The notes under the pieces: generated by a model | What the model saw: only the letters and a program-made list of their open reading frames with translations | What the model was told of the DNA's origin: nothing | The model's database searches: none | Made by a program: the position numbers and the translations under genes | Origin: a virus | Lineage: Duplodnaviria; Heunggongvirae; Uroviricota; Caudoviricetes | DNA length: 42,110 nt | Reading direction: 5' to 3' (one strand) | IMG/VR virus record: IMGVR_UViG_2541047875_000007 | Span: 1-42,110 of that record | Shown here: piece after piece, positions 5,687-40,010 of the stretch | Position numbering within the stretch: position 1 is the stretch's first letter | How the letters are laid out: each line of letters starts with the position of its first letter

Positions 5687-5941
5687 ATGGCTAGAGATGA
5701 TCCGCACTTTAACTTCCGCATGCCTTTGGAAGTAAGAGAAAAATTAAAATACAGAGCAGAGTCAAATGGTAGATCAATGAACTCAGAATTGTTGCAAATC
5801 GTCCAAGATGCTCTATCGAGACCATCTCCTGTAAAAGGTTATCGCAATGAAGCTGAACGATTAGCCGAGATGCAGGCTGAACAGTTCAAGTCTGTGGTAT
5901 TTGAGACACTTAAAAACATGTATGGCAAGGATGCAAAATGA
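5687..5941 (+). CDS. mnt: Mnt repressor (maintenance of lysogeny)
   Basis: 84-aa product MARDDPHFNFRMPLEVREKLKYRAESNGRSMNSELLQIVQDAL, Arc/MetJ-like ribbon-helix-helix N-terminus as in P22 Mnt; GGAG 7 nt upstream. Confidence 0.9.
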   Translation: MARDDPHFNFRMPLEVREKLKYRAESNGRSMNSELLQIVQDALSRPSPVKGYRNEAERLAEMQAEQFKSVVFETLKNMYGKDAK

Positions 5942-6519
5942 TCGATTACAACCCAGCAAAAAAAGAAATCATCGCAGCTAAAAAGTGCCTAGAGCAGATG
6001 AAATCATCTACAAACCATGATGATTTTGAAATGCACTGGCGAGAATGTCTTGGGCATATAGAAAAGTCTTTCAGTAAGTTGCTCTGTGCAACAAAGCCGG
6101 TTAGTGGAAAATTTAGCAGCCACTTCAACCAAAAGTTCATGCTTAGAAAAACAGACAAAACACTTGCTTACCTTCACCAAGCAAGAAATGCTGATCATCA
6201 TTCCACTATGGAAATCTCAAAACTTGAACCTCCTTATACTACTCTTGGGGCATTTCCTGGAGCAAGAAGCCATTATATTAAAGAGTTAATCATTGATTCA
6301 ACAGGGAAAATAGCAAAATACGAAGGCGACCCTATGATAGTTGAGTTTCATCCAGCAACAACTATGCCTATAACCGTAAGAAACCAAGGCAAAGATTATC
6401 CACCTCCAACAGAACATCTTGGCGAAAAGCTTGTTGATATACATCCATCTGTTCTTGCCCATCTCGGTATACAATTTTATGAAAAATGGATAGATGAGTC
6501 GTGTGCAACGTTTAGATAG
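5938..6519 (+). CDS. Hypothetical protein (193 aa), translationally coupled to mnt
   Basis: ATG overlaps the mnt stop (ATGA); AAGGA 6 nt upstream; no family recognised. Confidence 0.7.
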   Translation: MIDYNPAKKEIIAAKKCLEQMKSSTNHDDFEMHWRECLGHIEKSFSKLLCATKPVSGKFSSHFNQKFMLRKTDKTLAYLHQARNADHHSTMEISKLEPPYTTLGAFPGARSHYIKELIIDSTGKIAKYEGDPMIVEFHPATTMPITVRNQGKDYPPPTEHLGEKLVDIHPSVLAHLGIQFYEKWIDESCATFR

Positions 6520-6748
6520 TTATTTTTGATAATTTCAAGTATTTCCTCTTGACTTTGATTTACCCAAACGTGATCACACTCATGAAACCAGATTATGCTT
6601 CCTGTTTCGCCTTGTGCAATATAGGTGATCATGTTTTCATTAACAATTATTACTGAGTTATCATGTGCGTAATTTAGTTTTATCAATTCGCATATCCTAT
6701 CGTGACAAAGTAACTAGAAAAACTAAAGAGGTTGGTGTGTCTGATTCT

Positions 6749-7231
6749 ATGAGTTACGCTGTGCTAGTTGCCGCAACTCTATTTATGGGGATAGGGTTGC
6801 AGATTGCGTGGTTCTTTTTTTCTAGTTTTATTAAACGCAAAAGAATTGAATCAAGGATATCTGAGATTTCTATTGCCATAGGGAAAAATGCTGAAAATCC
6901 AGAGAATGAGACCTGCGCACTTAATTACCTTAAAGAAAAGTTTTCCCCTGAAAAATTTGAAAATAGAATTACTGATGCTCTTGGATTGGTAATATCAGTA
7001 ATTCATATGCCACTAAGTTTGCTGATAACAGTGTGGTACTTCGCCATGATCGCCGGAAGAATATTTGGTTTCATGAATATAGAGCCTGTAGTTCTTTGGG
7101 TTCCAATGATACTGCAACTGTTGTTAAGCGTTGCTATCTTTATTTTTTCTGTTTTTATAAAAATTGTCTTTGGAAGATACCCCGGAGAAGCTAAGGGATT
7201 TAATAAAGAATTCATAAAAACTATAAAATAA
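6749..7231 (+). CDS. Multi-pass membrane protein at the position of P22 sieA (possible superinfection exclusion); start uncertain
   Basis: Several hydrophobic segments ([58 protein letters not shown]). Alternative GTG start at 6737 has a better-spaced AAGAGG than ATG 6749. Confidence 0.55.
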
Positions 7232-7253: not shown

Positions 7254-9095
7254 CTACTGCCGTGTCGCTTCGTTAGCTAAGAGCGGGCGCACGGCAGTAG
7301 CAGCCTGATTTAGCGCTCTTTCATAAGCTGGCGTTCCAGCTTTAGTGTTTGCCAGACGTAAGAGCGCATTCCTTGCTGCTTTGGACTCATACAAACGCAT
7401 CATTGCACCAAAACCAGCCTCAATCCCCATTGATACTCCAAGAGTCGCAGTTGCGCCAATCGTCCTTATCCTGTTGGCTTGTGATTGCCCCGTCTGAGTT
7501 ACTACATTTGCGGTGTCTGACCTTGCTGTTTGCTGTAGAACTTCATGAAGAGCATCGAGCTCTTTCATGTGCTTTCCAGAAAAAATAGTGTTGTAAATTT
7601 CACCGCCTGACTGAGATTTAAGCTTATTAACTTCAGTGATGAACTTGGCTGGAGAGTCACCGGCCTTTTCCGCTATTTTGCTGACGTAAGCTGCACGCAT
7701 AGCATCTTTCCCTTTATCATCCAATGCGCTCCAGATTCGTTTCACGTCAGATGGTTTTCTGCTTAATACAACGGTATTTATAAGTTCAGGACTGGCTTCA
7801 CTGCTTGCCTTGTTGAGCTTGTTGGCAATGTTTTTATTAAGCACCTTATTATAAACGTTTGCATAATCGGAATTTGCTTTAAGGTATTTTGCTGCGTCTG
7901 ATGCACCGAGGTTTTTAGCAACTGCGTTACGAAGGTCTTTTGACATTGCATTCTCTACCATATTGGTAGCTGCTTTTGCCTGGTTGGGGAAGACCATAGC
8001 ATCTCCCTGAACATTAGATCTAAATGCTGTTCTGTGCTGACGCAAGAGATCAAACGTAACATCCAAATCAGTTGCAGGGTTTGCTAATTCTTCGCGTAGG
8101 TTACGCAAGGATGTAAGCAGGCTTTGATTGGCAGACGTCCCAAGCCGTTCCTGTCTTGCGATCGCTGTATTCAGAGCATTCATAGTGTTTGTGGTATCAA
8201 CTGCGGCATTCCCCATTTTATTGGTGACGTCATTGATAACAGCGCCAGCGGCATCCTTCCGTCCCCTTAACGTGGTGGTCAGAGATTTCACCACATCATC
8301 CGGGTTGTACTCACCAAAACGGTCAAAATAATTACTTACCAACTTACTACGCGTTGCATATTGCTCCGCTCGCTTTGAGCCTGTCCCGAGCAAAGCCCCC
8401 TCGGCATCCTGAGTAAGGCCGCGAGTGAAAGCATTTTTCGGCGGGATAACATCAGATGTCATTGGTGTCACGCCAATCGATTCTGATGTGGCAATTTTCT
8501 TCGCCACTTCTGGCGCAATATCACCTTTTATAGCCGTTATTCCACGCCCTATTCCCTTTGCTGCTGCGGAAAGAACCCCCTGAGCGGCAAGGTTAACTCC
8601 GGCATTTTTAGCTGCATTTTGTGCGAAATCGCCTTTCTGATTTGCGGCCTCTGCCAGTGATCCAATAGCCATGCTTCCTGCCGTTCCAACTCCTGGAACT
8701 AAATACCCACCAATTGTTTCACCGGCTTGTGCGTATGGGTCTGTCGGTCTGTCTACTGGACGATAAACATCATCCAAAACCTTGGGTCCACCAAGCCCAT
8801 GACTGATTGCATTAATCAGACTTGCGCCGCCCTGCAATACGTCAAATGGTATGTTTACCAGACCACGACCAGCCTGCTCTGCAATTTGCCCTGCACTTTG
8901 ACCACCTGTGAGCCAATCGCCAGCTTGTTGCATCAATGATGGTTCTTCACGTGCTGGTTCATTATTGGCCTGATTAACTGTTTGTTGCTGAACAGCCTGA
9001 CCAGCAAAATACTCATCAATGGCGGTGCCAATATCTTCCGTGCTCGTACCATCAGGGAAGGTAAATGTCTTACCGTTTGCAGTTACTTTCATCAT
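7254..9095 (-). CDS. Ejection (DNA-transfer) protein gp16
   Basis: 613-aa ORF in the conserved P22 order gp7-gp20-gp16; start overlaps the gp20 stop. Confidence 0.85.
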
Positions 9096-23296: not shown

Positions 23297-23603
23297 CTTC
23301 TACTCCGGCTTTTTTAGCAGCGAAGCGTTTGATAAGCGAACCAATCGAGTCAGTACCGATGTAGCCGATGAACACGCTCGTTATATAAGCGAGATTGCTA
23401 CTTAGTCCGGCGAAGTCGAGAAGGTCACGAATGAACCAGGCGATAATGGCGCACATCGTTGCGTCGATTACTGTTTTTGTAAACGCACCGCCATTGTATC
23501 TGCCGCGAAGGTACGCCATTGCAAACGCAAGGATTGCCCCGATTCCTTGTTCCTTTGCCGCGAGAATGGCGGCTAACAGGTCATGTTTTTCTGGCATATT
23601 CAT
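23280..23603 (-). CDS. S: Holin S (lambda class I holin with dual-start motif)
   Basis: 107 aa, [39 protein letters not shown]... matches lambda S; Met1-Asn2-Met3 dual start. Confidence 0.95.
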
Positions 23604-23728
23604 GTCTTACCCCCAATAAGGGGATTTGCTCTATTTAATTAGGAATAAGGTCGATTACTGATAGAACAAATCCAGGCTACTGTGTTTAGTAATCAGATTT
23701 GTTCGTGACCGATATGCACGGGCAAAAC

Positions 23729-23758
23729 GGCAGGAGGTTGTTAGCGCAACCTCCTGCC
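23729..23758 (-). terminator. tR'-like intrinsic terminator of the late leader
   Basis: GGCAGGAGGTTGCGCTAACAACCTCCTGCC hairpin followed by GTTTTGCCC on the minus strand; matches the remembered lambda tR' region. Confidence 0.7.
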
Positions 23759-23904
23759 ACCCGATTTCACGAAGGCAGCCATTGAGCTGGTTTTGTTTTA
23801 TGCAAAGCACACCGCACCGTAGCCACAGCGGATAAGGTGATTATTTTGGTCTGTCTGGTATTTGGTTTGATGTGCTTTCAGAAAGGCCGTGCTTAAAACG
23901 CAAA

Positions 23905-23932
23905 AAGCCCCGAGCTATTAACTCAGGGCTTT
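23905..23932 (-). terminator. Promoter-proximal hairpin plus U-tract downstream of pR'
   Basis: Minus strand AAAGCCCTGAG-TTAATA-GCTCGGGGCTTTTTGCGTTTT. Confidence 0.5.
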
Positions 23933-23957
23933 ATTTAACGAGTGCATTTATCCATCG

Positions 23958-23994
23958 TTAGGTCAAATTTACCCAACTTTATTCAATAAGTCAA
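23958..23994 (-). promoter_or_regulatory. Late promoter pR' with overlapping qut (Q-utilisation) region
   Basis: Minus strand TTGACT - 17 bp - TAAATT, followed by a -10-like AACGAT pause element in the initial transcribed region; placed just downstream of Q as in lambda. Confidence 0.6.
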
Positions 23995-24036
23995 TATCAT
24001 GCCGTTAATATGTTGCCATCCGTGGCAATCATGCTG

Positions 24037-24660
24037 CTAACGTGTGACCGCATTCAATATGTTGTCTGCGATTGACTCTTCTTTGTGGCATTGCACCACC
24101 AGAGAGTCATACAGCGGCTTAACAGTGCGTGACCAGGTGGGTTGAGTAAGGTTTGGGATTAGCATCGTTACAGCGCGATATGCGGCGCTTGCTGGCATTC
24201 TTGAATAGCCGACACCTTTGCATCTTCCGCATTCTTTCTCAACAACTCTCCCCCACTGCTCTGTTTTGGCTATATCAACCGCACGGCCTGTACCGTGGCA
24301 ATCTCTGCATCTTGCGCCCGGCGTCGCGGCACTACGGCAATAATCCGCATAAGCGAATGTTGCGAGCACTTGCAGTACCTTTGCCTTAGTATTTCCTTCG
24401 AGCTTTGCCACACCACGGTATTTCCCCGATACCTTGTGTGCAAATTGCATCAGATAGTTGATAGCCTTTTGTTTGTCGTTCTGGCTGAGTTCATGCTTAC
24501 CGCAGAATGCAGCCATTCCGAATCCGGCTTGTGATTGTGCCATCCCCATAGCAGCCATCACATCAGTACCGGAAAGAGAGTCAGACGCCGTGGCCCGTGG
24601 TGAGTCACTCATCATCGGGCTTTTTGGCGAATGAAATTTAGCTACACTTTCGAGTCTCAT
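24037..24660 (-). CDS. Q: Late antiterminator Q (lambda-type)
   Basis: 207 aa, MRLESVAKFHSPKSPMMSDSPRATASDSLSG...CRDCHGTGRAVD... essentially identical to lambda Q from memory. Confidence 0.95.
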   Translation of the reverse strand: MRLESVAKFHSPKSPMMSDSPRATASDSLSGTDVMAAMGMAQSQAGFGMAAFCGKHELSQNDKQKAINYLMQFAHKVSGKYRGVAKLEGNTKAKVLQVLATFAYADYCRSAATPGARCRDCHGTGRAVDIAKTEQWGRVVEKECGRCKGVGYSRMPASAAYRAVTMLIPNLTQPTWSRTVKPLYDSLVVQCHKEESIADNILNAVTR

Positions 24661-24845
24661 GGTCTACCCCTCTTGCCCTGTTTGACCATCAGGACGCCGT
24701 TAACTATTACGTGACGCTCACCTTTGCTGTCTCGGTTGTACTTGAGCACTGTTCCTCTTGCGCAGGAAAGCATCCTCGCCACTTCGGTCTGATTGCCTCG
24801 TGTCTGGATAAGAAGCTCTGGTATCGTTTGAATTGTGGCGTTCAT
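24657..24845 (-). CDS. ninH: NinH-like protein
   Basis: 62 aa, ...GNQTEVARMLSCARGTVLKY...VIVNGVLMV resembles lambda NinH. Confidence 0.7.
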   Translation of the reverse strand: MNATIQTIPELLIQTRGNQTEVARMLSCARGTVLKYNRDSKGERHVIVNGVLMVKQGKRGRP

Positions 24846-25204
24846 ACGTTCTCCAGTTCGGTGATTTTTATTCCAAGCCTTCCGCCTGGTACTTTCACAC
24901 CACGAATTACGCGAATGTCATCGAATTGCTCGTCGTCTTCCGCAAATCCGGCGTGGATAAGTGAGTCGAGTAAACCTTTCAGGATGTTGTCGAGGTCGCG
25001 GCGGCGGGAGTCTGGAACGTCTGCGATGACTTTGATACGGAGTCGTGATTTGGTAAAAATGTCTAACTTGAGTTGGCGGATGATTTTCTGAACGTCTTTT
25101 CGGTATTTCTGGCCTTTATCGCTTATGTAATATTGGCTTCCCCGTCTTCGCCAGTAGGTATTCAGCGACGGTGGGTATGGAAGTACAAACTGATATTCGT
25201 TCAT
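24842..25204 (-). CDS. rusA: Holliday-junction resolvase RusA
   Basis: 120 aa; LPYPPSLNTYWR...DRRRRDLDNILKGLLDSLIHAGF...GGRLGIKITE matches the RusA family. Confidence 0.9.
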   Translation of the reverse strand: MNEYQFVLPYPPSLNTYWRRRGSQYYISDKGQKYRKDVQKIIRQLKLDIFTKSRLRIKVIADVPDSRRRDLDNILKGLLDSLIHAGFAEDDEQFDDIRVIRGVKVPGGRLGIKITELENV

Positions 25205-25491
25205 GGCTTAATCTTCCCCTCCTTCAGCAGTATCGCCTGCGTCCTGATCACGCCTTCGAGGTGGTAAAGTCTGGCGTCTTTGTTGTCGAGAATCCGGGTG
25301 CGTCGGTCGATCTCCGCGTGGCAGTCACTACAAGCCCATGCGCAGATCAGGTCGTCAGGCTTCATTCCCGTTCCGCAAATTCCAGCCATCCGGTAATGTG
25401 CCAGAACTGTAGTTTCAGGATTACCATTGCATACGCCGTAAATACGTACCTGGCATTCTCTTCCGCGCGCTTCTTTGCGTAGGTTAGCCAT
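25201..25491 (-). CDS. YbcO-like protein (DUF1364; putative nuclease)
   Basis: 96 aa with Cys/His cluster (CQVRIYGVCNG...CAWACSDCH); sits immediately upstream of rusA like ybcO in DLP12. Confidence 0.6.
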   Translation of the reverse strand: MANLRKEARGRECQVRIYGVCNGNPETTVLAHYRMAGICGTGMKPDDLICAWACSDCHAEIDRRTRILDNKDARLYHLEGVIRTQAILLKEGKIKP

Positions 25492-25696
25492 TTACCTTCC
25501 CTCGCAATTGAAGAATTGACTGAAGGTCTTTTTTAATAAATATGCGAGTGCGAATTGAGCAGTAGTTTTCCTTCATTCTGGCGTAGTAATAGTCTTTTCT
25601 TTGCTTAAGCTTGTTGGCATCCGCTGTCATCCAGTCTTTTACAGCAAACTTAATTAACCAGCGGTGGTAGAGATACCATTTCAGGTAATCATTCAT
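25484..25696 (-). CDS. Hypothetical protein (70 aa)
   Basis: ORF in the coupled nin gene string; no family recognised. Confidence 0.5.
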   Translation of the reverse strand: MNDYLKWYLYHRWLIKFAVKDWMTADANKLKQRKDYYYARMKENYCSIRTRIFIKKDLQSILQLRGKVNG

Positions 25697-25865
25697 CGTC
25701 TTCTTCCTCGTACATTGAGCTATTCGGATCGCTCATCAGTTCTGCACAGCAGTGCTCACACACGTGAACTTCCAGCACATGCAGCTTCTGACCGCAGTTA
25801 GCGCACGTTAAAGCCCGCTCGACGCTTTCTTTCTGGTATTGAATGGATTGGGATGGGCTAAGCAT
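25689..25865 (-). CDS. ninF: NinF-like protein
   Basis: 58 aa from ATG 25865 (the track's ORF begins at an upstream TTG); [58 protein letters not shown] matches lambda NinF. Confidence 0.8.
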   Translation of the reverse strand: MLSPSQSIQYQKESVERALTCANCGQKLHVLEVHVCEHCCAELMSDPNSSMYEEEDDE

Positions 25866-26808
25866 TAACAACCTCCATACAAACTTTCACGAATGCCGTT
25901 GCTACTTCTGCATTGATTGCGTTTCCATATCCAATAATTCGCTGATCTTGATTGCGCTTTGCCATTCTTCCCAGTGTGGACTTGCCTCGTCCCAAGCTTT
26001 TGGCAATGCCATTAACCATCGGGAATGAGCCGGGTCTAACTGGACGATATTTTTCATCTCTACAGTAAAGCCAGTCTGCATCTCTCCAGAAGCCGTTAAC
26101 CGGTAATGGGTACATAGCTTCACCGTCCCGGGAAGTTTCAAGCAGATTCTTGGGGTTCCGCTCTTGTCTTTTCCGCTGTAGCAATGCGTTGAACCTGTTG
26201 CATCGTTCGCTAAAGGAGTTTGCCATCCCGCTAGTCTCACGCATCCAGATAGGTTCTGAATTCCCCTGCGCGTCTCTGGCTGAAAGTTGATATTTGTCGT
26301 TGGAGTAGGCCACCCAATACAATCGCTGCCTAATGTGCGGAGAACCGAAGCCCGCAGCGCAAATATCGGTACCTGCAGAGGTGTAGTTCGCACCTTCCAA
26401 GTCAGTTTGTACAAGGTCGAGCCAAGCGAGGCCGTCTGCGCTTGCAACCTGTTCGCCAATAACGATGCCAGGATTGCATTTTTCAATAAGCCAGAAGAAT
26501 GCCGGCCATAAGTGCCGCTCGTCATCAACCCCTTTTCCTTTGCCTGCCGAGCTGAAAGGTTGGCATGGGCAACTTCCTGTCCAGATACTCTTGTTGTCTG
26601 GCCATCCTGCTTTTCTAAGTGCATAGCTCCAAACTCCGATTCCTGCAAAAAAGTGGTGCTGGGTAAATCCTCGCAAATCACCTGGTGTGACATCTTCAAT
26701 ACTCCTTTCATCTACATAACCGGGGGCAATTTCTCCAGCGTCAATTAAGTTACGCAGCCATTGCGCTGCATACGGATCTATTTCGTTGTAATACGCAGTC
26801 ATCGTCAT
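25858..26808 (-). CDS. DNA cytosine-5 methyltransferase (orphan; no adjacent restriction endonuclease)
   Basis: Motif I FFAGIGV and motif IV catalytic [13 protein letters not shown]. Start is either ATG 26808 (overlaps the ninE stop) or ATG 26802 (GAGGAA 8 nt upstream). Confidence 0.85.
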
Positions 26809-26981
26809 TTCCTCGCACGATGTCTTAGCCACCGGATATCCCACAGGTGAGCCGTGTAGTTGAAGGTTTTTACGTCAGATTCTTTTGGGATTGGCTTGCG
26901 TTTATTTCTGGAGCGTTTCGTTGGAAGGTATTTGCAGTTTTCGCAGATGATGTCGGTGAAACTTCGTCGCTGTCGTCTCAT
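26805..26981 (-). CDS. ninE: NinE (58 aa); missed by the ORF track because under 60 aa
   Basis: Translation [58 protein letters not shown] matches lambda NinE; ATG overlaps the ninB stop (ATGA). Confidence 0.8.
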
Positions 26982-27388
26982 TCGTACCTCCTGTCGGTAA
27001 ATCTGACACCCTGACCAATAGCCCAGGCTGTTGTGTACTCAATCAGACTTGCCATACGCTTCACACTCATCTGCGCGCTGCTTTCGCGGATGTTGACGTA
27101 TTCGCCTTCAAGCCCGGGCAAAACATCAGCTTCCTGCTTTGTTGCCACTGCATGACCGCTGATCAACAAAACCTTCCATTGTTCTGGTTTTAACCATTTA
27201 TCGCGCCACTGAACTTGCCTGGCGATATCTGCGACCATCGCGTGAAATTTTGCGTTCTGGTCAAGATTTCGCTTGTAGTCAGTAATGCGGATGGTGACTG
27301 GCTTGTCTTTATCGAGTGGTGTTGCGAGGATGGCGTTGATTGCGGCTTGCTGTTGTTGCTTACTCCTGAGGAAAATTGTCTGTTTCAT
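26978..27388 (-). CDS. ninB: NinB recombination protein (Orf family)
   Basis: 136 aa; ...[25 protein letters not shown]... resembles lambda NinB. Confidence 0.85.
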
Positions 27389-27396
27389 GGAATTCC

Positions 27397-27609
27397 TCAG
27401 TATGCGTAAAGGCTGTATCCATTTTTATTTGTCCTGGTGCCATAGCCATATAGGCTCCAGCCATCCTGTTTTCTCTCACCAAAAATATGCTTGCGGTATT
27501 CTTCCTGCTGGCGTCTCCATATTTCCATCATGTCTGGCTGGTTCTTTTCTCGCATTTTTCGGATCTGCTCAAGGATGAACTCTATTTGCTGCTGATTTGT
27601 CATGCTCAC
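27397..27609 (-). CDS. Hypothetical protein (70 aa)
   Basis: ORF between the helicase and ninB; no family recognised. Confidence 0.5.
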   Translation of the reverse strand: MSMTNQQQIEFILEQIRKMREKNQPDMMEIWRRQQEEYRKHIFGERKQDGWSLYGYGTRTNKNGYSLYAY

Positions 27610-27613
27610 TCCT

Positions 27614-27829
27614 TCACTTTAAATCCAGGTTCCGGATAATTCTGTCACACTGAAAATCAGTATCGATTTTAACCAACCGGCGAAGAACGCGGTCACGCGG
27701 ATAGCTCCGTGGCTTAGGGGCGTTTTTCTGTCTCTCGCCAGTCGGAAGTCTGGAAGCAGACCAGTACCGCTTTGCACGACCAATGTTCTCCTGAAAGTCG
27801 GCGCGGACAAGCTCAGCTATCGTACTCAT
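27614..27829 (-). CDS. Hypothetical protein (71 aa) at the lambda ren position
   Basis: ATG overlaps the stop of the upstream 30-aa ORF; basic protein, no family recognised. Confidence 0.5.
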   Translation of the reverse strand: MSTIAELVRADFQENIGRAKRYWSASRLPTGERQKNAPKPRSYPRDRVLRRLVKIDTDFQCDRIIRNLDLK

Positions 27830-27918
27830 TTCTTAAAGCCTCCAATTACTCTCCCCCAAATAAAAAGGCCTGCGATTACCAGCAGGCCTGTTATTAGCTC
27901 AGTGATGTAGATGGTCAT
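27826..27918 (-). CDS. Putative 30-aa hydrophobic peptide, translationally coupled between the helicase and the next gene
   Basis: [30 protein letters not shown]; ATG overlaps the helicase stop (ATGA) and its stop overlaps the next ATG; not in the ORF track. Confidence 0.4.
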
Positions 27919-29291
27919 ACGTCAGCCCCTTGTGCATATCGTCTGCCACGCGCAGCAGGTGCATTTGATGCTGTGCAAATCTGTCTGGCTTCATCCTGGT
28001 CACATGCAACAAAGTGTCCGTTGCAGAACCGCTGGTAAACCGTACCAAGTGAGCCAAAACGGTTTTTCGTCACAATGATTTCAGCAAATGGCGCGGCGCT
28101 ACTGTTCTCGTCATATACAGCTTCCCGATAGAGCATGATGATTGAGTCTGCGTCCTGTTCAATGCTTCCTGAATCACGCAAATCTGCGTTTGTCGGGCGT
28201 TTGTTTGGTCGCTTCTCAACATCGCGCGAAAGCTGACTCAGGGAGATAACAGGCGTTTTCAGGTCTTTCGCCATCGCCTTCAGGCTTCCGGAGATGTGAG
28301 CAATTGCGAGGTCGTTGCGATCTGCTTTCGGCTTCTCAATCAGGCCAAGATAATCCACCATGATGAGTGACAGGTTTGGATTTTCCTGTTTGTGCCGTTC
28401 TGCGATTGAGCGTATTTCTTCGACCGATAACCGCGAGGCATCGACTACCCATACATCCAAATCTGCAAGCTGACTCATGCCGTTAGCAACGCGCGCCCAG
28501 CCTTCGTCATCCATCGATGCAGGATTTCGCAGCACACTAACCGACATCCTCCCGGCGTTGGCAATACTTCGCTCTGCAATCTGCAATGCGCTCATTTCCA
28601 TTGAGAAAATCAACACTCCGCGCCGGACGTCAGAACCAGGAATAACGCGGCTTGCAACGCCTTCGGCAATCTTCAGCGCCAGTTCGGTTTTACCCATACC
28701 GGGACGAGCGGCGATAATCACCAGGTCTTCTGCGTTCATCCCTCCGGTGATGGCGTCAAGTTCGTCGATTCCGGTCTTCAGGGTATCTGACTCTTCTCCG
28801 TTCCTCAGACGCCTGTCAAGCGTGTCAGTGTAGTCAGTGATGATTTCCCCTAACCGTACCGGTTTAACCTCGTCACGGGGCTTTCTGATGGCTGAAAGAC
28901 GCTTTACAAGTTCATCCATCGCCTGACTCGATGCGTCGATGGTTCCGCTCTGAATTGGTTCACGCATTTCATCCATGATTTCCAGCACCAGACGGCGGTG
29001 ATAGTTATCCGCGACCATTCCGGCATATCCCTTCAGGTTTGCGGCACTCGGGCAGTTTTTGCTGGTCATCAGGATTGACGTGAAATGCTCCTCTCCGCAC
29101 GCCTCGGCAACCATCAGCGCGTCGATTAAATTTCTGTTTCGCGCCTGCTTGCGGATAACCTCGAAGGCTTTCCGGTAGAGCGGAATTGAAAACGCTTCCG
29201 GCTCCAGCGTTGCCAGAACGTCGCTGGCGGTTGGAGTTAATCCACCAATCAGCAGGCCACCGATAACGCTCGCTTCGATATCCTGTCTCAT
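27915..29291 (-). CDS. Replicative DNA helicase (DnaB family; P22 gene 12-like)
   Basis: 458 aa; Walker A GMGKTE, DnaB-type motifs, typical DnaB N-terminal domain. Confidence 0.9.
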
Positions 29292-30235
29292 GCAATCCCC
29301 CTGTCTGCAAACTTCCCTTCCCGTACTCCCGTTAACGAATCTTCCCTCAACAGGTAATCAAAATCAGCCGTCCAGCCCGTGTCGTTGTCTCCGAAGTAAA
29401 ACGGCTTGGCCTGATGCACAAACGCCCTGACATACGCTCTGAAACCGTCCACGTTTGGCGTTTTCAGTTGCGGGATGATTTTCTTCAGGCGGCGTTTGCG
29501 TTTCTCGTTGACTGCAACAGCATGTGGAAGTCTGTCACCGACTTCGGTGTTGTAGGCGTTCAGGAAGGATTCGTAGTCGATTCGTTCTGCCTTGCGACGT
29601 TCAGGTTTAACCTGCCCATCGCCGCCCCCATTGGGGGGTAGGGGGGTATTATTTATATTCTTGTTAATACCTTCTTGTTCATGATGTGCGGTTGTTTGTG
29701 CGGCTTCATGTGCGCTTTCATGTGCGGAATGTGCGCTGAAAGCTGCGCCATTACTGGCTTCGTCATGTGCGGCATCATGTGCGGTTGTTTGTGCGGCATC
29801 ATGTGCGGGTAAATTGTCCATTTTTTGAGCATATTCATGGTAATTTGTGATGGTGATCACACGACCTTTTTGCTTCTCTCCATCAATGGAGATCATCCCT
29901 TCTTTCACAAAAACCTGAAGCATCCGCTCAACCTGATCACGGCTTGCTGGCTTGCCATGTCTGTCGCATAACTGAAGACCTAAATCAGCTGCTGTCACAA
30001 CCAGTTGACCGGGTTGCAGATGCCATTCATGACCTTTGAAATTCGCTTTGTATGGCTTTCTGGCGGCATTCAGGAGAAGGTTTTCCCACAGGGTGCGAAG
30101 ATAAACATCTTTCGCCCATGACTGTTTCAGAATGCTCCGGTACAACGGAATGTAACCAGTTTTCTGGTTCTCCATCCTGTTGCTCCTGCGCTCGTGTGCG
30201 GCGCTGAAATCGTAGATTTTTGCTGTATTGCTCAT
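29288..30235 (-). CDS. Replication initiator (lambda O / P22 gene 18-like) with internal His/Ala-rich low-complexity linker
   Basis: 315 aa; N-terminus [10 protein letters not shown]... resembles the lambda O N-terminus; linker [40 protein letters not shown] is encoded by the iteron repeats. Confidence 0.8.
29646..29810 (-). repeat. Putative origin of replication: about 9 direct repeats of a TGTGCG(G/C) core inside the initiator gene, flanked by an AT-rich segment (29646-29672)
   Basis: Repeats at roughly 10-12-bp spacing (CATCATGTGCGGTTGTTTGTGCGGC occurs twice); adjacent TATTATTTATATTCTTGTTAATACC; arrangement parallels lambda ori within O. Confidence 0.6.
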
Positions 30236-35808: not shown

Positions 35809-36102
35809 ATGCCAGCGCCTCTGTATGGTGCGGATGACGCGCGCCGCTGTTCCGGCAATTCCGTATCGGAGGTGCTGGATAAATTCAGGAAAAACTACGA
35901 CCGGATAATGTCGCTACCGCAGGAAACGAAAGAGGAAAAGGAATTTCGCCATTGTATATGGCTTGCAGAGAAAGAAGAACGCGAGCGAATTTACCAGACA
36001 TCAATCCGACCATTCCGCAAAGCCACATATACCCACTTCCCTGAAATTGACCCGCGCCTGCGTAATTACCGCTCACGCTATGGCGCTATCAGTAATGACT
36101 GA
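35809..36102 (+). CDS. Hypothetical protein (97 aa)
   Basis: ATG with GGAG upstream. Confidence 0.55.
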
Positions 36103-36112
36103 GGAATTTACC

Positions 36113-36277
36113 ATGAGAGGACTTGCATACAATCCCGGCATTCTTCCGGCAGAAATGATTATTCGCCAACGCGTAAAGCCAATGCCATCGAGAGAGGAAT
36201 TGCTTAAGAGAAATTCTTTTCCATCAGTGAATCAAAACAAATATCTGAATGCGATGTGGCGGAGTGGGAAAAAATGA
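36113..36277 (+). CDS. Hypothetical small protein (54 aa)
   Basis: ATG 36113 with GAGGAA 6 nt upstream; the ORF-track ORF 35963-36277 overlaps the previous gene and was trimmed. Confidence 0.45.
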
Positions 36278-36711
36278 AACAAATGTCACTAATTGAGATG
36301 GATGGTTTTCTGAAAGGTAAATGCATCCCACGAGATTTAAAGGTTAACGAAACAAACGCTGAATATCTGGTGCGTAAATTTGCTGAAGCGGAGGCCAAGT
36401 GCGCGGCGCTGGCTGCTGAAGTTGAGGCTGTGAAATCAGCACATCAAGATGCTGTAAACACCATCATGTATACCGCCAATCGAACGGGTGTTTTATACAC
36501 AGAGAAGGCAATTCAAATGTCCTGCAAAACCCCGGCCACCGATGCTTTCCTGACTGAAGTCCGGGCTAAGGCGTTTGATGACCTTTGCGCGGCGTTCGTT
36601 AAGCACGCGTCGGTGTCCGGGCTGGACGATGGCGACTGCGTTACGGTGAAAGAGGCGACTGACGCCCTGCTGCATTGTGCGGAACAGCTTCACAAGGGAG
36701 TGCATTCATGA
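36274..36711 (+). CDS. Hypothetical protein (145 aa)
   Basis: ATG 36274 overlaps the previous stop (ATGA); GGAG upstream. Confidence 0.55.
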
Positions 36712-36941
36712 GCAACCTACTACCATGTCCATTCTGTGGCGGTGCAGCGCACGTTGCCAGCGAAGCAGATCACCCTGAATATGGCTCTGGCGGTCGATTC
36801 TATTTCGTTCGATGCGGTACGTGTCGCGCTCAATCTGGTAGCAAATATGCAGCGCCTGGAAATGACTGCGCGATTTTTTATTCAGAGGTTAGAGCAGAGT
36901 GGAATCAGCGAGCAAAGGAGGCAACCAGTGAGCAAGATTGA
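36708..36941 (+). CDS. Lar-family restriction-alleviation-like zinc-ribbon protein
   Basis: [12 protein letters not shown]...FVRCGTCRAQSG...AEWNQR fits the remembered Lar-family pattern; ATG overlaps the preceding stop. Confidence 0.6.
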   Translation: MSNLLPCPFCGGAAHVASEADHPEYGSGGRFYFVRCGTCRAQSGSKYAAPGNDCAIFYSEVRAEWNQRAKEATSEQD

Positions 36942-37335
36942 CTATCAGGCACTGCGTGAAGCGGCAGAGAAAGCCGGTGAAGATAAGTGGCAGGCTAAAA
37001 AAATAAATGGTGATTTTTTCGTTATTCGTCACGGTAGTTATACAAGACAGCATGGCTACACATCGTATCAACCCATTGCGGAGATTGATTGTAAGCCAGT
37101 CCGGGATTTTGTTGCCAAGGCTAATCCGGCTACCGTGCTGGAATTACTGGATGAACTGGAAGCAGCAAAAAAGCGCATTGCAGAACTGGAAGCGCGGGAA
37201 ATATCGCTCCCGGAACGTAGCAGCATGCTTCATCGAACAGATTTTCACGATGATTACCAAACGGTAATGGCATACAAAGTTTCTGAAGTCATCGATGCAA
37301 TCCGCGCTACTGGCATTCGCATCAAAGGAGAGTGA
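36928..37335 (+). CDS. Ead/Ea22-like protein (135 aa); GTG start
   Basis: GTG 36928 preceded by AGGAGG; VSKIDYQALREAAEKAGEDKW... and coiled-coil ELLDELEAAKKRIAELEARE resemble Ead/Ea22-family proteins; overlaps the Lar-like gene by 14 nt. Confidence 0.5.
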   Translation: MSKIDYQALREAAEKAGEDKWQAKKINGDFFVIRHGSYTRQHGYTSYQPIAEIDCKPVRDFVAKANPATVLELLDELEAAKKRIAELEAREISLPERSSMLHRTDFHDDYQTVMAYKVSEVIDAIRATGIRIKGE

Positions 37336-37336
37336 T

Positions 37337-37852
37337 ATGGCGTTAACACACAGCGAACTCTGTCAGATTGCGTACAAGTTCCTTAAGCGCAACGGGTTCA
37401 AGGTTTATTTTCATGACCGCTTTATAGCTGTAACCAGTACCGGAGAACAGCCAGATGCTATGGGATTCAGAAATTCAGCATCATGCCTGATAGAGGCGAA
37501 GTGTTCTCGTGCTGACTTGTTGGCAGATAGAAAAAAGCGTTTCCGTAAAAATCCGTCTTTTGGAATGGGCGACTGGCGATTCTTTATTAGTGAGCCGGGA
37601 ATTATTTCAATTGAGGATTTACCTCCCGGCTGGGGATTACTTCACGTTGTTAACGGAAGAGTACGGAAAGTACATGGGTGGCCCAAGGGTAATTGCTGTT
37701 GGGGTAATCCTGACGATAAGCCATTTACTGGAAATAAGCAGGTTGAATGCGATTACATGTTATCTGCATTAAGGCGCATGGAGTTGAGAGGGCACCTTAA
37801 TGAAATATATGACGGTGTAATTGTTAATAAGAAAGAAGGAAACGCGGCATGA
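37337..37852 (+). CDS. Hypothetical protein with a PD-(D/E)xK nuclease-like motif
   Basis: ATG 37337 with AGGAG upstream; GEQPDAMGF...CLIEAKCS fits a PD...ExK signature; Cys-rich segment GNCCWGN. Confidence 0.45.
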   Translation: MALTHSELCQIAYKFLKRNGFKVYFHDRFIAVTSTGEQPDAMGFRNSASCLIEAKCSRADLLADRKKRFRKNPSFGMGDWRFFISEPGIISIEDLPPGWGLLHVVNGRVRKVHGWPKGNCCWGNPDDKPFTGNKQVECDYMLSALRRMELRGHLNEIYDGVIVNKKEGNAA

Positions 37853-39630: not shown

Positions 39631-39652
39631 GCCGCCTGATGGCGGTTTTTTA
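39631..39652 (+). terminator. Intrinsic terminator
   Basis: GCCGCC-TGAT-GGCGG followed by TTTTTTATT. Confidence 0.55.
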
Positions 39653-39665
39653 TTGGAGACAAGAA

Positions 39666-40010
39666 ATGTCAGATTTGGCTATGAAGATTTTGAAATGGCA
39701 AACGACTGGCGATGTTGGCATCAGTAGCGCAACTCTTGCCTCAATCGCATGTGGACTGAAAAAGAATATCTATGGTCATCACTTCGGCGCTCCACATGAC
39801 GCAGCAGATTTCCGACGATGCGTTGCACTTGTTGAGCAGATTCCAGAAGTCAGAGATTCATTCGACAAGGTTGCAAAGCGTGTTCCGGCATTCAAAGGCA
39901 TTCTCAACGAATGGGATTCCCTCGTTGCTCTGTTGAAGTCTGAAATGAAGATACACGGAAACAAAGCACCAGAGACTTACAGAAGAATTAGCGAGTTACG
40001 CAAGGATTAA
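39666..40010 (+). CDS. Hypothetical protein (114 aa)
   Basis: ATG 39666 with GGAG 7 nt upstream. Confidence 0.55.
   Translation: MSDLAMKILKWQTTGDVGISSATLASIACGLKKNIYGHHFGAPHDAADFRRCVALVEQIPEVRDSFDKVAKRVPAFKGILNEWDSLVALLKSEMKIHGNKAPETYRRISELRKD

What the first reader, a model, noticed from the sequence alone, without database searches (positions are those of the whole stretch)
25858..26981. Orphan C5 cytosine methyltransferase embedded in the nin region
A 315-aa Dcm-like methyltransferase with intact motifs I and IV is wedged between lambda-like ninE and ninF with ATGA-type overlaps on both sides, and there is no adjacent restriction endonuclease. It is probably an anti-restriction or epigenetic cargo gene expressed with the delayed-early operon.
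Basis: partly seen in the sequence, partly recalled or inferred. Interest (0 to 1): 0.45.

Follow-up and report, generated by a model that had tools for sequence, protein, structure and literature searches.

The report
Phage orphan cytosine methyltransferase, swapped motifs
A real but fairly ordinary phage gene for a stand-alone DNA cytosine-5 methyltransferase sits in the nin region of a P22-like E. coli prophage; its one unusual feature, shared with its whole large phage family, is that the cofactor-binding motif I lies after motifs II-III instead of at the start of the protein.

Summary
The ORF is real. It lies on the minus strand at 25858-26802 (314 aa; an alternative ATG at 26808 gives 316 aa), between ninE and ninF of a P22/HK620-like prophage. 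The finding's coordinates also include ninE. RefSeq already annotates the identical gene as 'DNA cytosine methyltransferase', and it matches phage family phrog_363 over its full length (E 2e-92).

The most likely function is a lytic-cycle (delayed-early) solitary 5mC methyltransferase that marks replicating phage DNA against restriction. Its target sequence is unknown.

Motif I is present but displaced: the protein starts at motif II, and the FxGxG segment lies between motifs III and IV. Moving that segment back to the N-terminus in silico raises the Pfam score by 12-15 bits in three divergent members. 376 of 389 homologues share this order.

The gene is ordinary; the motif order of its family is a modest curiosity.

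The parts
25858..26802 (-). Methyltransferase CDS, 314 aa (stop TAG 25858-25860; start ATG 26800-26802). An alternative ATG at 26806-26808 gives 316 aa.
   Evidence: (PGAP WP_077635079.1 on the identical locus); GAGGA at 26810-26814 lies 7 nt before ATG 26802; the family consensus begins MTAYYNEID
26689..26796 (-). N-terminal motifs II-III (residues 3-38: [17 protein letters not shown] ... [10 protein letters not shown]). The protein starts here, with no motif I ahead of it.
   Evidence: TIGR00675 aligns the N-terminus to profile position 23; colinear with HhaI 35-63 after de-permutation; AF2 elements E3-6, H10-21, E28-31
26602..26670 (-). Displaced motif I plus following helix (residues 45-67: [23 protein letters not shown]), inserted between motifs III and IV
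   Evidence: F52 and G54 invariant, G56 nearly invariant in 74 sequences; moving the segment to the N-terminus raises the PF00145 score 52.5 -> 71.7 bits and extends the match to profile position 5, while a shuffled control gives 59.4; aligns to HhaI 17-33; AF2 E48-51 and H57-64
26551..26577 (-). Motif [11 protein letters not shown], with the catalytic Cys80
   Evidence: read directly from the sequence; P79, C80, Q81 invariant; aligned to HhaI GFPCQAFS
26446..26457 (-). Motif VI, GEQV (canonical ENV; Glu117 kept, Asn replaced by Gln throughout the family)
26317..26340 (-). Motif [12 protein letters not shown] (Arg158 and Arg160 invariant)
26098..26301 (-). Hypervariable region (residues 168-235), presumed target-recognition part. 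It has one 'GMAN'-headed module; relatives have 0-4.
   Evidence: alignment gaps and length variation; 54-303 aa in relatives; tetrapeptide count 195 against 11.6 +/- 3.7 in shuffles; low pLDDT
26011..26097 (-). Conserved C-terminal block [29 protein letters not shown] (residues 236-264), family-specific, in the position of motif IX and the small domain
   Evidence: W239, W244, C247, D249, R253, P254, P261 invariant or nearly so; no Pfam match when searched alone
25909..25929 (-). Motif X, YGNAINA (Asn294 retained)
   Evidence: compared by eye with FGNSV, the HhaI motif X recalled from memory
26805..26981 (-). ninE (58 aa). Its stop TGA at 26805-26807 lies 2 nt before the methyltransferase ATG.
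   Evidence: Pfam NinE E 4.2e-43
25689..25865 (-). ninF (58 aa). Its ATG at 25863-25865 overlaps the methyltransferase 3' end by 8 nt. Its first 11 codons belong to the inserted module.
   Evidence: Pfam NinF E 1.9e-12
25832..26807 (-). Mosaic module absent from HK620 (976 nt here replace 33 nt there)
   Evidence: blastn of the junctions: homology at 97-98% ends at 26808 and resumes at 25831; HK620 ninE and ninF are adjacent
27866..27889 (-). tR2-like intrinsic terminator upstream of the nin genes, marking the start of the antitermination-dependent stretch
   Evidence: the same position as the annotated tR2 of HK620
24037..24660 (-). Late antiterminator Q, at the end of the same transcription unit

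Best explanation
This is a phage-encoded solitary (orphan) S-adenosylmethionine-dependent DNA cytosine-5 methyltransferase.

Shown:
- It has the C5-methyltransferase catalytic fold and all catalytic residues: the Cys nucleophile in CPCQ, the motif VI Glu, the motif VIII Arg-x-Arg and the motif X Gly-Asn.
- It has an FxGxG cofactor loop that lies after motifs II-III in the chain rather than before them.
- It has no endonuclease partner.
- It is a mosaic insertion between ninE and ninF.

Inferred:
- It is transcribed from PR through the tR2-like terminator under N antitermination, and translated in the coupled nin gene chain. It would therefore be made during lytic growth or induction, not in the repressed lysogen.
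- It then methylates cytosines at a still unknown target sequence in replicating phage DNA before packaging.
- Progeny genomes would thus enter the next host pre-protected against restriction enzymes that are blocked by 5-methylcytosine.
- The hypervariable 168-235 region, together with the conserved C-terminal block, presumably forms the target-recognition domain.
For: Gene reality and family:
- Pfam PF00145 scores 52.5 bits against a cut-off of 22. phrog_363 matches over the full length at E 2e-92.
- Motifs IV-VIII align to M.HhaI.
- In 74 diverse homologues, F52, G54, P79, C80, Q81, E117, Q118, V119, R158 and R160 are invariant, and Y292, G293, N294 nearly so.
- The family is very large and conserved: 3234 50%-identity clusters at E<=1e-30.
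- Some members carry an intein right at the catalytic PCQ, a position typical of functionally indispensable sites.

Solitary status:
- PGAP annotation of the identical prophage lists no endonuclease.
- Unknown ORFs in the window have no Pfam or PADLOC hits to nucleases or defence partners.

Phage-replication context in distant members:
- Neighbours include DNA polymerase, primase-helicase, PD-(D/E)XK and Enc34 ssDNA-binding genes, plus adjacent Dam-like or N6/N4 methyltransferases, and no endonuclease.
- A 52% homologue sits directly upstream of ninF in Erwinia phage 59.
- The family occurs in 243 phage records, including virulent coliphages.

Operon context:
- There is no promoter-like site on the gene's strand, and terminator-like sites flank the nin-Q block.

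Rationale from the literature:
- P22 and lambda virion DNA is under-methylated by host Dam and Dcm (PMC8022706).
- The same prophage also carries Lar and an anti-RecBCD gene.
Against: - No member of this swapped-motif family was found with a measured activity or target, so activity is inferred from conservation only.
- Motif VI is EQV, not the near-universal ENV.
- Motif I is displaced. Its 3D placement could not be inspected, because no coordinates were available.
- The curated dcm model TIGR00675 scores 42.7 bits, below its 100.65 cut-off.
- The C-terminal 147 aa match no Pfam family and are modelled with low confidence.
- From established knowledge, 5-methylcytosine makes DNA a target for the type IV enzymes McrA, McrBC and Mrr that are common in E. 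coli, so the benefit depends on the host.
- The gene is rare at this locus: 11 of 5426 complete E. coli genomes.
Confidence: 0.7

Rival explanations
1. It is lysogen-expressed epigenetic cargo (a moron). The enzyme would be made in the prophage state and would methylate the host chromosome, changing gene expression or 'vaccinating' the host against incoming restriction-modification systems.
For: Prophage-encoded orphan methyltransferases with host phenotypes are documented (e.g. PMC12435837, PMC10746215, listed). The gene is a mosaic insertion that is variably present among related prophages.
Against: No promoter-like site lies on its strand between the tR2-like terminator and the gene. It is translationally chained to ninE and ninF inside the repressor-controlled PR operon. 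The family also occurs in virulent phages and in replication modules.
Confidence: 0.12
2. It is a C5-methyltransferase-like enzyme that installs something other than a methyl group, for example a CmoX-type carboxymethyltransferase using host Cx-SAM as a handle for hypermodification.
Against: CmoX is defined by an Arg replacing the motif X Asn and by an SPPC motif (PMC12783734). Here the motif X Asn294 is kept (YGNAI) and motif IV is CPCQ. No CmoA, amide ligase or ParB-domain gene is in the window. The sequence match of the family profile to 8yf3 is marginal (E 0.0058).
Confidence: 0.04
3. It is a catalytically dead or repurposed methyltransferase homologue, for example a DNA-binding or base-flipping protein that acts as a decoy or regulator. 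The rearranged cofactor site and the EQV motif VI would have abolished methyl transfer.
For: Motif I is displaced, motif VI is non-canonical and the curated dcm model scores below its cut-off. No biochemical data were found for the family.
Against: FxGxG, the motif II Glu, PCQ, the motif VI Glu, RxR and GN are all invariant or nearly so across thousands of clusters. This is not expected after loss of catalysis. An intein sits at the catalytic Cys in some members.
Confidence: 0.07
4. It is the modification half of a restriction-modification or other defence system (type II R-M, Druantia- or DISARM-like) whose partner lies elsewhere.
For: PADLOC gives weak partial hits to generic MTase_II, DruM and DrmMII models (best 3.9e-17, motifs IV-VIII mainly).
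Against: No endonuclease, helicase or other defence component is in the 42-kb window or in the annotated identical prophage. The neighbouring ORFs of 58-96 aa are standard nin genes. Distant homologues also lack endonuclease neighbours.
Confidence: 0.03

Closest known systems
M.HhaI (the structural archetype of bacterial C5 cytosine methyltransferases)
   Different: About 24% identity. Motif I and helix A come after motifs II-III instead of first. Motif VI is EQV rather than ENV. The target-recognition region is unrelated. There is no partner endonuclease.
E. coli Dcm (solitary CCWGG methyltransferase with Vsr)
   Same: A solitary C5 methyltransferase of the same superfamily.
   Different: Only 23% identity over 134 aa, motifs IV-VIII. 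hhalign of the family profile against Dcm aligns only those motifs. There is no Vsr neighbour. It is phage-borne, and there is no reason to assume CCWGG specificity.
phrog_363 phage 'DNA methyltransferase' family (e.g. Salmonella phage epsilon15 'cytosine methylase', Burkholderia phage BcepC6B gp33, coliphage K1H 'C-specific methylase', Erwinia phage 59 gp69)
   Same: Full-length match (E 2e-92). 49-56% identity. Same N-terminal architecture. In Erwinia phage 59 the position directly upstream of ninF is also the same.
   Different: The variable region and the host differ. No sequenced phage isolate is closer than about 56% over the full length. I found no experimental characterisation of any of these.
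Naturally permuted C5 methyltransferases: M.BssHII / M2.Eco31I (zeta class, 'topology F') and plant DRM enzymes
   Same: C5 methyltransferases in which the order of conserved motifs departs from I-X (bioRxiv 10.1101/2023.12.13.571470; PMC3227630).
   Different: Those are circular permutations of whole subdomains. Here only the motif I/helix A unit has changed places with the motif II-III unit inside the cofactor-binding half (order II-III-I-IV...X). This is not a circular permutation of the protein.
CmoX, phage DNA cytosine C5-carboxymethyltransferase (PDB 8yf3)
   Different: It lacks the CmoX Arg and the SPPC signature, and it lacks CmoA or ligase neighbours.

Membership tests
C5 cytosine DNA methyltransferase superfamily (Pfam PF00145, HhaI-like) | Score above the curated Pfam gathering threshold | tested here: met
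   52.5 bits against a cut-off of 22. Only profile positions 64-196 of 324 are matched.
C5 cytosine DNA methyltransferase superfamily (Pfam PF00145, HhaI-like) | Motif IV Pro-Cys-Gln with the catalytic cysteine | tested here: met
   GSCPCQPFS at 26551-26577. P79, C80 and Q81 are invariant in 74 homologues.
C5 cytosine DNA methyltransferase superfamily (Pfam PF00145, HhaI-like) | Motif VI Glu-Asn-Val | tested here: inconclusive
   The Glu is present and invariant (E117), but the Asn is Gln in the whole family (EQV). The consequence is unknown.
C5 cytosine DNA methyltransferase superfamily (Pfam PF00145, HhaI-like) | Motif VIII Arg-x-Arg and motif X Gly-Asn | tested here: met
   R158 and R160 are invariant. 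Y292, G293 and N294 are nearly invariant.
C5 cytosine DNA methyltransferase superfamily (Pfam PF00145, HhaI-like) | Canonical motif order, with motif I (FxGxG) at the N-terminus before motifs II-III | tested here: not met
   The protein starts at motif II, and FxGxG is at residues 52-56, after motif III. The de-permutation test gains 12-15 bits over the native, deleted and shuffled controls in three members. 376 of 389 homologues have the order II<I<IV.
C5 cytosine DNA methyltransferase superfamily (Pfam PF00145, HhaI-like) | Class I methyltransferase catalytic fold resembling solved C5 methyltransferases | tested here: met
C5 cytosine DNA methyltransferase superfamily (Pfam PF00145, HhaI-like) | SAM-dependent formation of 5-methylcytosine in DNA | not testable with these tools
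   Needs expression followed by bisulfite, EM-seq or LC-MS.
NCBIfam TIGR00675 'dcm' | Score above the curated cut-off | tested here: not met
   42.7 bits against 100.65.
E. coli Dcm / Vsr-linked CCWGG methyltransferases | Close sequence similarity including the target-recognition domain, and an adjacent vsr | tested here: not met
   23% identity over motifs IV-VIII only. There is no vsr in the window.
Type II restriction-modification system | A cognate endonuclease gene adjacent or nearby | tested here: not met
   No endonuclease in the PGAP annotation of the identical 41-kb locus. Unknown ORFs have no nuclease or defence hits.
CmoX carboxymethyltransferases | Arg in place of the motif X Asn, an SPPC motif, and a CmoA or amide-ligase neighbourhood | tested here: not met
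   Asn294 is kept, motif IV is CPCQ, and no such neighbours are present.
PHROG 363 (phage DNA methyltransferase) | Full-length profile match | tested here: met
   E 2.1e-92; residues 11-327 of the 328-aa ORF match profile positions 5-317 of 327.
Lambdoid nin-region gene chain (delayed-early, N-dependent) | Same strand, between tR2 and Q, with tightly overlapping or abutting reading frames | tested here: met
   Terminator-like site at 27889-27866, Q at 24037-24660, TGAcgATG and ATGCTTAG junctions, and HK620 synteny. Transcription itself was not tested.

The most novel reading that the evidence does not exclude
The whole phage family to which this gene belongs may be a third natural topology of C5 DNA methyltransferases. 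In it the beta1/Gly-loop/helix A unit (motif I) has swapped places in the chain with the beta2-alphaB-beta3 unit (motifs II-III), giving the order II-III-I-IV-...-X. This is not a circular permutation. It implies either an unusual crossover connection or a relocated helix in the cofactor site. The two classifications of C5 methyltransferase permutations that I could read do not list it. The number of ~35-40-aa 'G-M-A-N'-headed modules in the variable region (0-4) might additionally set mono- versus multi-specificity.
Probability: 0.4. Interest if true: 0.45.

Novelty: new member of a known kind. Interest (0 to 1): 0.3.

Why it matters
For the locus itself it matters little. It is one more phage-borne solitary cytosine methyltransferase. 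It is useful to know about when predicting restriction evasion, McrBC sensitivity or methylome changes for P22-like prophages of ST131 and APEC-type E. coli.

The wider point concerns the family. It is abundant (thousands of clusters and 243 sequenced phages of Proteobacteria) and routinely annotated as 'DNA cytosine methyltransferase'. As far as I could find, it has no measured activity or target. It also builds its cofactor site from motifs in a non-canonical order. That explains why curated profiles match only half of the protein. If activity is confirmed, it would show that the C5-methyltransferase fold tolerates an internal segment swap.

Tried and rejected
- Near-identical phage relatives: megablast of 25600-27400 against phages matched only the flanks (ninB, ninE, ninF); the methyltransferase itself has no close phage relative.
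- Target prediction: the C-terminal 147 aa hit no Pfam family. The family profile aligns to solved structures only over motifs IV-VIII. No target can be predicted.
- Experimental characterisation of the family: ten literature searches found nothing for this family. The ST131 methylome paper (PMC4659465) did not assay 5mC. The Durham phage modification paper (PMC13390438) does not mention it.
- Paracoccus lead: the prophage m5C methyltransferases JCM7686_0772 and JCM7686_2655 have relaxed specificity (PMC3925955). I could not show that they belong to this swapped family. tblastn with a Rhodobacter phage member, a protein search and a genome scan did not retrieve P. aminophilus. I left this as an untested lead.
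- Bujnicki 2002 (PMC102321) on methyltransferase permutations is not held, so prior description of this motif order there cannot be excluded.
- The GTG start at 26844 (328 aa) was rejected. It overlaps ninE by 40 nt and adds residues absent from all homologues.
- The 269-aa ORF 25902-26711 in another frame of the same strand has no family hit and is taken as spurious.
- Base composition shows no anomaly over the insert (GC 0.46-0.52).
- I could not verify the sheet order of the model, because the tools return no coordinates.
Full report
**1. The observation**

Listing ORFs over 23500-29500 shows a minus-strand ORF at 25858-26844, counted from a GTG. Inside it are two ATGs, at 26808 and 26802.

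The coding strand reads GCGAGGAAATGACGATGACTGCG. GAGGA (26814-26810) lies 1 nt before the first ATG and 7 nt before the second. PGAP uses the second ATG on the identical E. coli locus (WP_077635079.1, 314 aa). Homologues begin 'M-x-AYYNEID'. The gene is therefore 25858-26802, 314 aa.

The neighbours on the same strand are NinE (26805-26981; Pfam E 4e-43) and NinF (25689-25865; Pfam E 2e-12). Further out are NinB, YbcO/DUF1364, RusA, NinH and Q.

The ninE stop (TGA, 26807-26805) lies 2 nt before the preferred ATG. It forms an ATGA only with the less likely ATG at 26808. At the other end, the ninF ATG (25865-25863) overlaps the methyltransferase stop (TAG, 25860-25858) by 8 nt. The ninF Shine-Dalgarno sequence GGAGG lies inside the methyltransferase's last codons.

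A 269-aa ORF in another frame (25902-26711) has no family match and is disregarded.

**2. Where the window comes from**

The window is a P22/HK620-like (Lederbergvirus-type) prophage of E. coli. It is 100% identical to NZ_CP069451.1 over the methyltransferase ORF query (987 bp).

The full gene occurs in only 11 of 5426 complete E. coli genomes, at 99.1-100% identity. It occurs in no sequenced phage isolate at more than about 56% protein identity over the full length. The flanking nin genes are 94-96% identical to many lambdoid and P22-like phages.

In HK620, ninE and ninF abut each other. Homology at 97-98% stops at window 26808 and resumes at 25831. A 976-nt module (25832-26807) therefore replaces 33 nt and brings its own first 11 ninF codons.

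Erwinia phage 59 carries a 52%-identical homologue in the same place, directly upstream of ninF. Base composition over the insert is unremarkable.

**3. What the protein is**

- Pfam PF00145 matches at 52.5 bits (cut-off 22), but only over profile positions 64-196 of 324.
- The curated dcm model TIGR00675 reaches 42.7 bits, below its 100.65 cut-off. It aligns the N-terminus to profile position 23 rather than 1.
- PHROG 363 ('DNA methyltransferase') matches over the full length at E 2e-92.
- phmmer against PDB sequences finds M.HhaI over motifs IV-VIII only (query 68-169 to HhaI 70-174, 31.6 bits).
- E. coli Dcm is 23% identical over the same stretch, and hhalign of the family profile against Dcm aligns only those motifs. 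'Dcm-like' therefore holds only at superfamily level.

An exhaustive HMMER search finds 16111 50%-identity clusters at E<=1e-3 and 3234 at E<=1e-30.

In an alignment of 74 diverse members, the invariant residues include F52, G54, P79, C80, Q81, E117, Q118, V119, R158, R160 and R253. The nearly invariant ones include N6, E7, G56, Y292, G293 and N294. The catalytic Cys, the motif VI Glu, the motif VIII arginines and the motif X Gly-Asn are therefore all under strong constraint. The one systematic departure is EQV in place of ENV.

**4. The displaced motif I**

By eye, the protein starts with '[17 protein letters not shown]'. This is the motif II signature (compare HhaI VYSNEWDKYAQEVYEMNF). The FxGxG sequence '[19 protein letters not shown]' comes only at residues 49-67, between motif III and the CPCQ of motif IV.

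I tested this with artificial sequences scored against Pfam PF00145. Scores are in bits, with the profile positions matched in brackets.

| Variant | Window protein | P0224 | P0197 |
|---|---|---|---|
| Native | 52.5 (64-196) | 40.0 | 52.0 |
| Segment 45-67 deleted | 58.2 (26-210) | 40.4 | 52.4 |
| Segment moved to the N-terminus | 71.7 (5-209) | 54.5 | 67.1 |
| Segment moved and shuffled | 59.4 (23-209) | 41.4 | 53.2 |

P0224 and P0197 are two divergent members. Against HhaI, the de-permuted sequence aligns colinearly from HhaI residue 17 (LFAGLGG) to 174, at 42.3 bits against 31.6 for the native sequence.

The AF2 secondary-structure elements map one-to-one onto HhaI beta2, alphaB, beta3, a short turn, beta1, alphaA and beta4. 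They are E3-6, H10-21, E28-31, H40-43, E48-51, H57-64 and E73-77.

The arrangement is a property of the family:
- All 74 aligned sequences have it, most with 0-9 residues before the first motif.
- 376 of 389 retrieved homologues have the order II<I<IV.
- A tblastn with only the first 89 residues finds 243 phage records covering at least 80% of them. The named host genera are Proteobacteria: Escherichia 74, Klebsiella 50, Salmonella 23, Rhodobacter 23, Burkholderia 19, Xanthomonas 13, Pseudomonas 9 and others.

What I could not do is inspect coordinates. That strand 48-51 occupies the beta1 slot is therefore inferred from sequence and secondary structure. Whether helix 57-64 packs where helix A normally does, which would require an unusual crossover to beta4, remains open.

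The classification of prokaryotic methyltransferase topologies that I could read lists only the canonical arrangement and the zeta / M2.Eco31I type for m5C enzymes. Jurkowski & Jeltsch mention only the DRM circular permutation. Bujnicki 2002 was not available. I therefore cannot claim that this order has never been described.

**5. Solitary status and context**

PGAP's annotation of the identical 41-kb locus has no restriction endonuclease, Vsr or CmoA. The immediate neighbours are 58-136-aa nin proteins. The unknown ORFs of the window have no nuclease or defence hits:
- 5938-6519, 6665-7231, 39639-40010 and 25484-25696 have no significant hit in Pfam or PADLOC.
- 7254-9095 and 37295-37852 have no Pfam hit.
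- 36256-36711 has no PADLOC hit.

PADLOC itself gives only generic partial methyltransferase hits for the protein.

Two distant family members lie in phage replication modules. P0224 sits next to DUF4406, a Dam-like methyltransferase and a family A DNA polymerase. P0197 lies between an N6/N4 methyltransferase and a primase-helicase. Neither has an endonuclease nearby.

The promoter and terminator scan finds no promoter-like site on the minus strand near the gene. It finds terminator-like hairpins at 27889-27866, which is the position of tR2 in HK620, and at 23932-23904 after Q.

**6. The mechanism I commit to**

The gene encodes an active solitary C5 DNA methyltransferase made in the delayed-early phase. 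Transcription would run from PR through the tR2-like terminator under N antitermination, with translation coupled to ninE and ninF. The enzyme would methylate replicating phage DNA, so that packaged genomes are pre-protected in the next host.

The steps shown are identity, conserved catalytic residues, fold, solitary status and operon position. The steps inferred are activity, timing and benefit.

The rationale is established. Solitary phage methyltransferases protect against restriction, and P22 and lambda virion DNA is under-methylated by the host Dam and Dcm (PMC8022706). The same prophage also carries Lar and an anti-RecBCD gene. The cost is also established: 5mC exposes DNA to McrA, McrBC and Mrr. 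My confidence is 0.7.

**7. Rivals**

- A lysogen-expressed epigenetic moron (0.12) is disfavoured by the lack of a promoter and by the family's presence in virulent phages.
- A CmoX-like carboxymethyltransferase (0.04) fails the defining features. CmoX has an Arg in place of the motif X Asn, an SPPC motif and CmoA or ligase neighbours (PMC12783734). Here the protein has Asn294, CPCQ and no such genes.
- A dead or repurposed homologue (0.07) is hard to reconcile with the invariance of every catalytic and cofactor residue, or with the inteins that sit exactly at the catalytic PCQ in some members.
- A hidden restriction-modification or defence partner (0.03) was not found.

**8. Target specificity**

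The target is unknown. The region between motif VIII and the conserved C-terminal block is hypervariable: 54-303 aa in relatives and 77 aa here. It is built from 0-4 modules headed by G-[LMVI]-[AG]-[DN], with 195 occurrences in 160 proteins against 11.6 +/- 3.7 in shuffles. The window protein has one such module.

This recalls the tandem target-recognition modules of multispecific Bacillus phage methyltransferases, which I cite from my own knowledge, but the comparison is speculation. Two Paracoccus prophage m5C methyltransferases were shown to have relaxed specificity (PMC3925955). I could not establish whether they belong to this family.

**9. Verdict**

The finding is real and its identification is essentially right, with corrections to strand, coordinates, length, overlaps and the position of motif I. 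The gene is an ordinary kind of phage cargo that automated pipelines already annotate. The non-canonical motif order of its large, uncharacterised family is a modest structural curiosity that deserves a structure and an activity assay.

Interest is 0.3. Novelty is 'new member of a known kind'.

Noticed in passing
homologues P0162 (766 aa) and P0249 (842 aa), not in the window: Some family members carry an intein (Hint_2, LAGLIDADG_3 and Intein_splicing domains) inserted immediately before the catalytic PCQ of motif IV.
   Followed up: partly
window 26098-26301 (-) and the same region of 160 homologues: The hypervariable region consists of 0-4 modules of about 35-40 aa, each headed by G-[LMVI]-[AG]-[DN]. 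There are 195 occurrences against 11.6 +/- 3.7 in shuffles. The window protein has one (GMAN). This may be a variable number of target-recognition modules.
   Followed up: partly
window ~36708-36941 (+) and ~35809-36102 (+): On the identical annotated locus, the same prophage encodes a Lar-family restriction-alleviation protein and a phage anti-RecBCD protein. It therefore carries several anti-restriction or anti-nuclease functions.
   Followed up: no
window 5938-6519 (+) and 6665-7231 (+): Two adjacent ORFs of 193 and 188 aa lie on the opposite strand to the tail genes, between the P22-type antirepressor and the DNA-injection genes. They have no Pfam or PADLOC match. The position looks like a moron, and the function is unknown.
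   Followed up: partly
window 25832-25865 (-): The first 11 codons of ninF belong to the inserted module rather than to the HK620-like backbone. Erwinia phage 59 also has a homologous methyltransferase directly upstream of ninF. The methyltransferase-ninF junction therefore seems to travel as a unit.
   Followed up: partly
window 25484-25696 (-): A 70-aa ORF between ninF and ybcO/DUF1364 occupies the place where HK620 has roi. It has no significant family match.
   Followed up: no
L004 and L006 (metagenomic contigs with distant homologues): Distant family members sit next to a second solitary methyltransferase (Dam-like or N6/N4 type) inside phage replication modules. In L006 the neighbouring helicase also carries an intein.
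   Followed up: no
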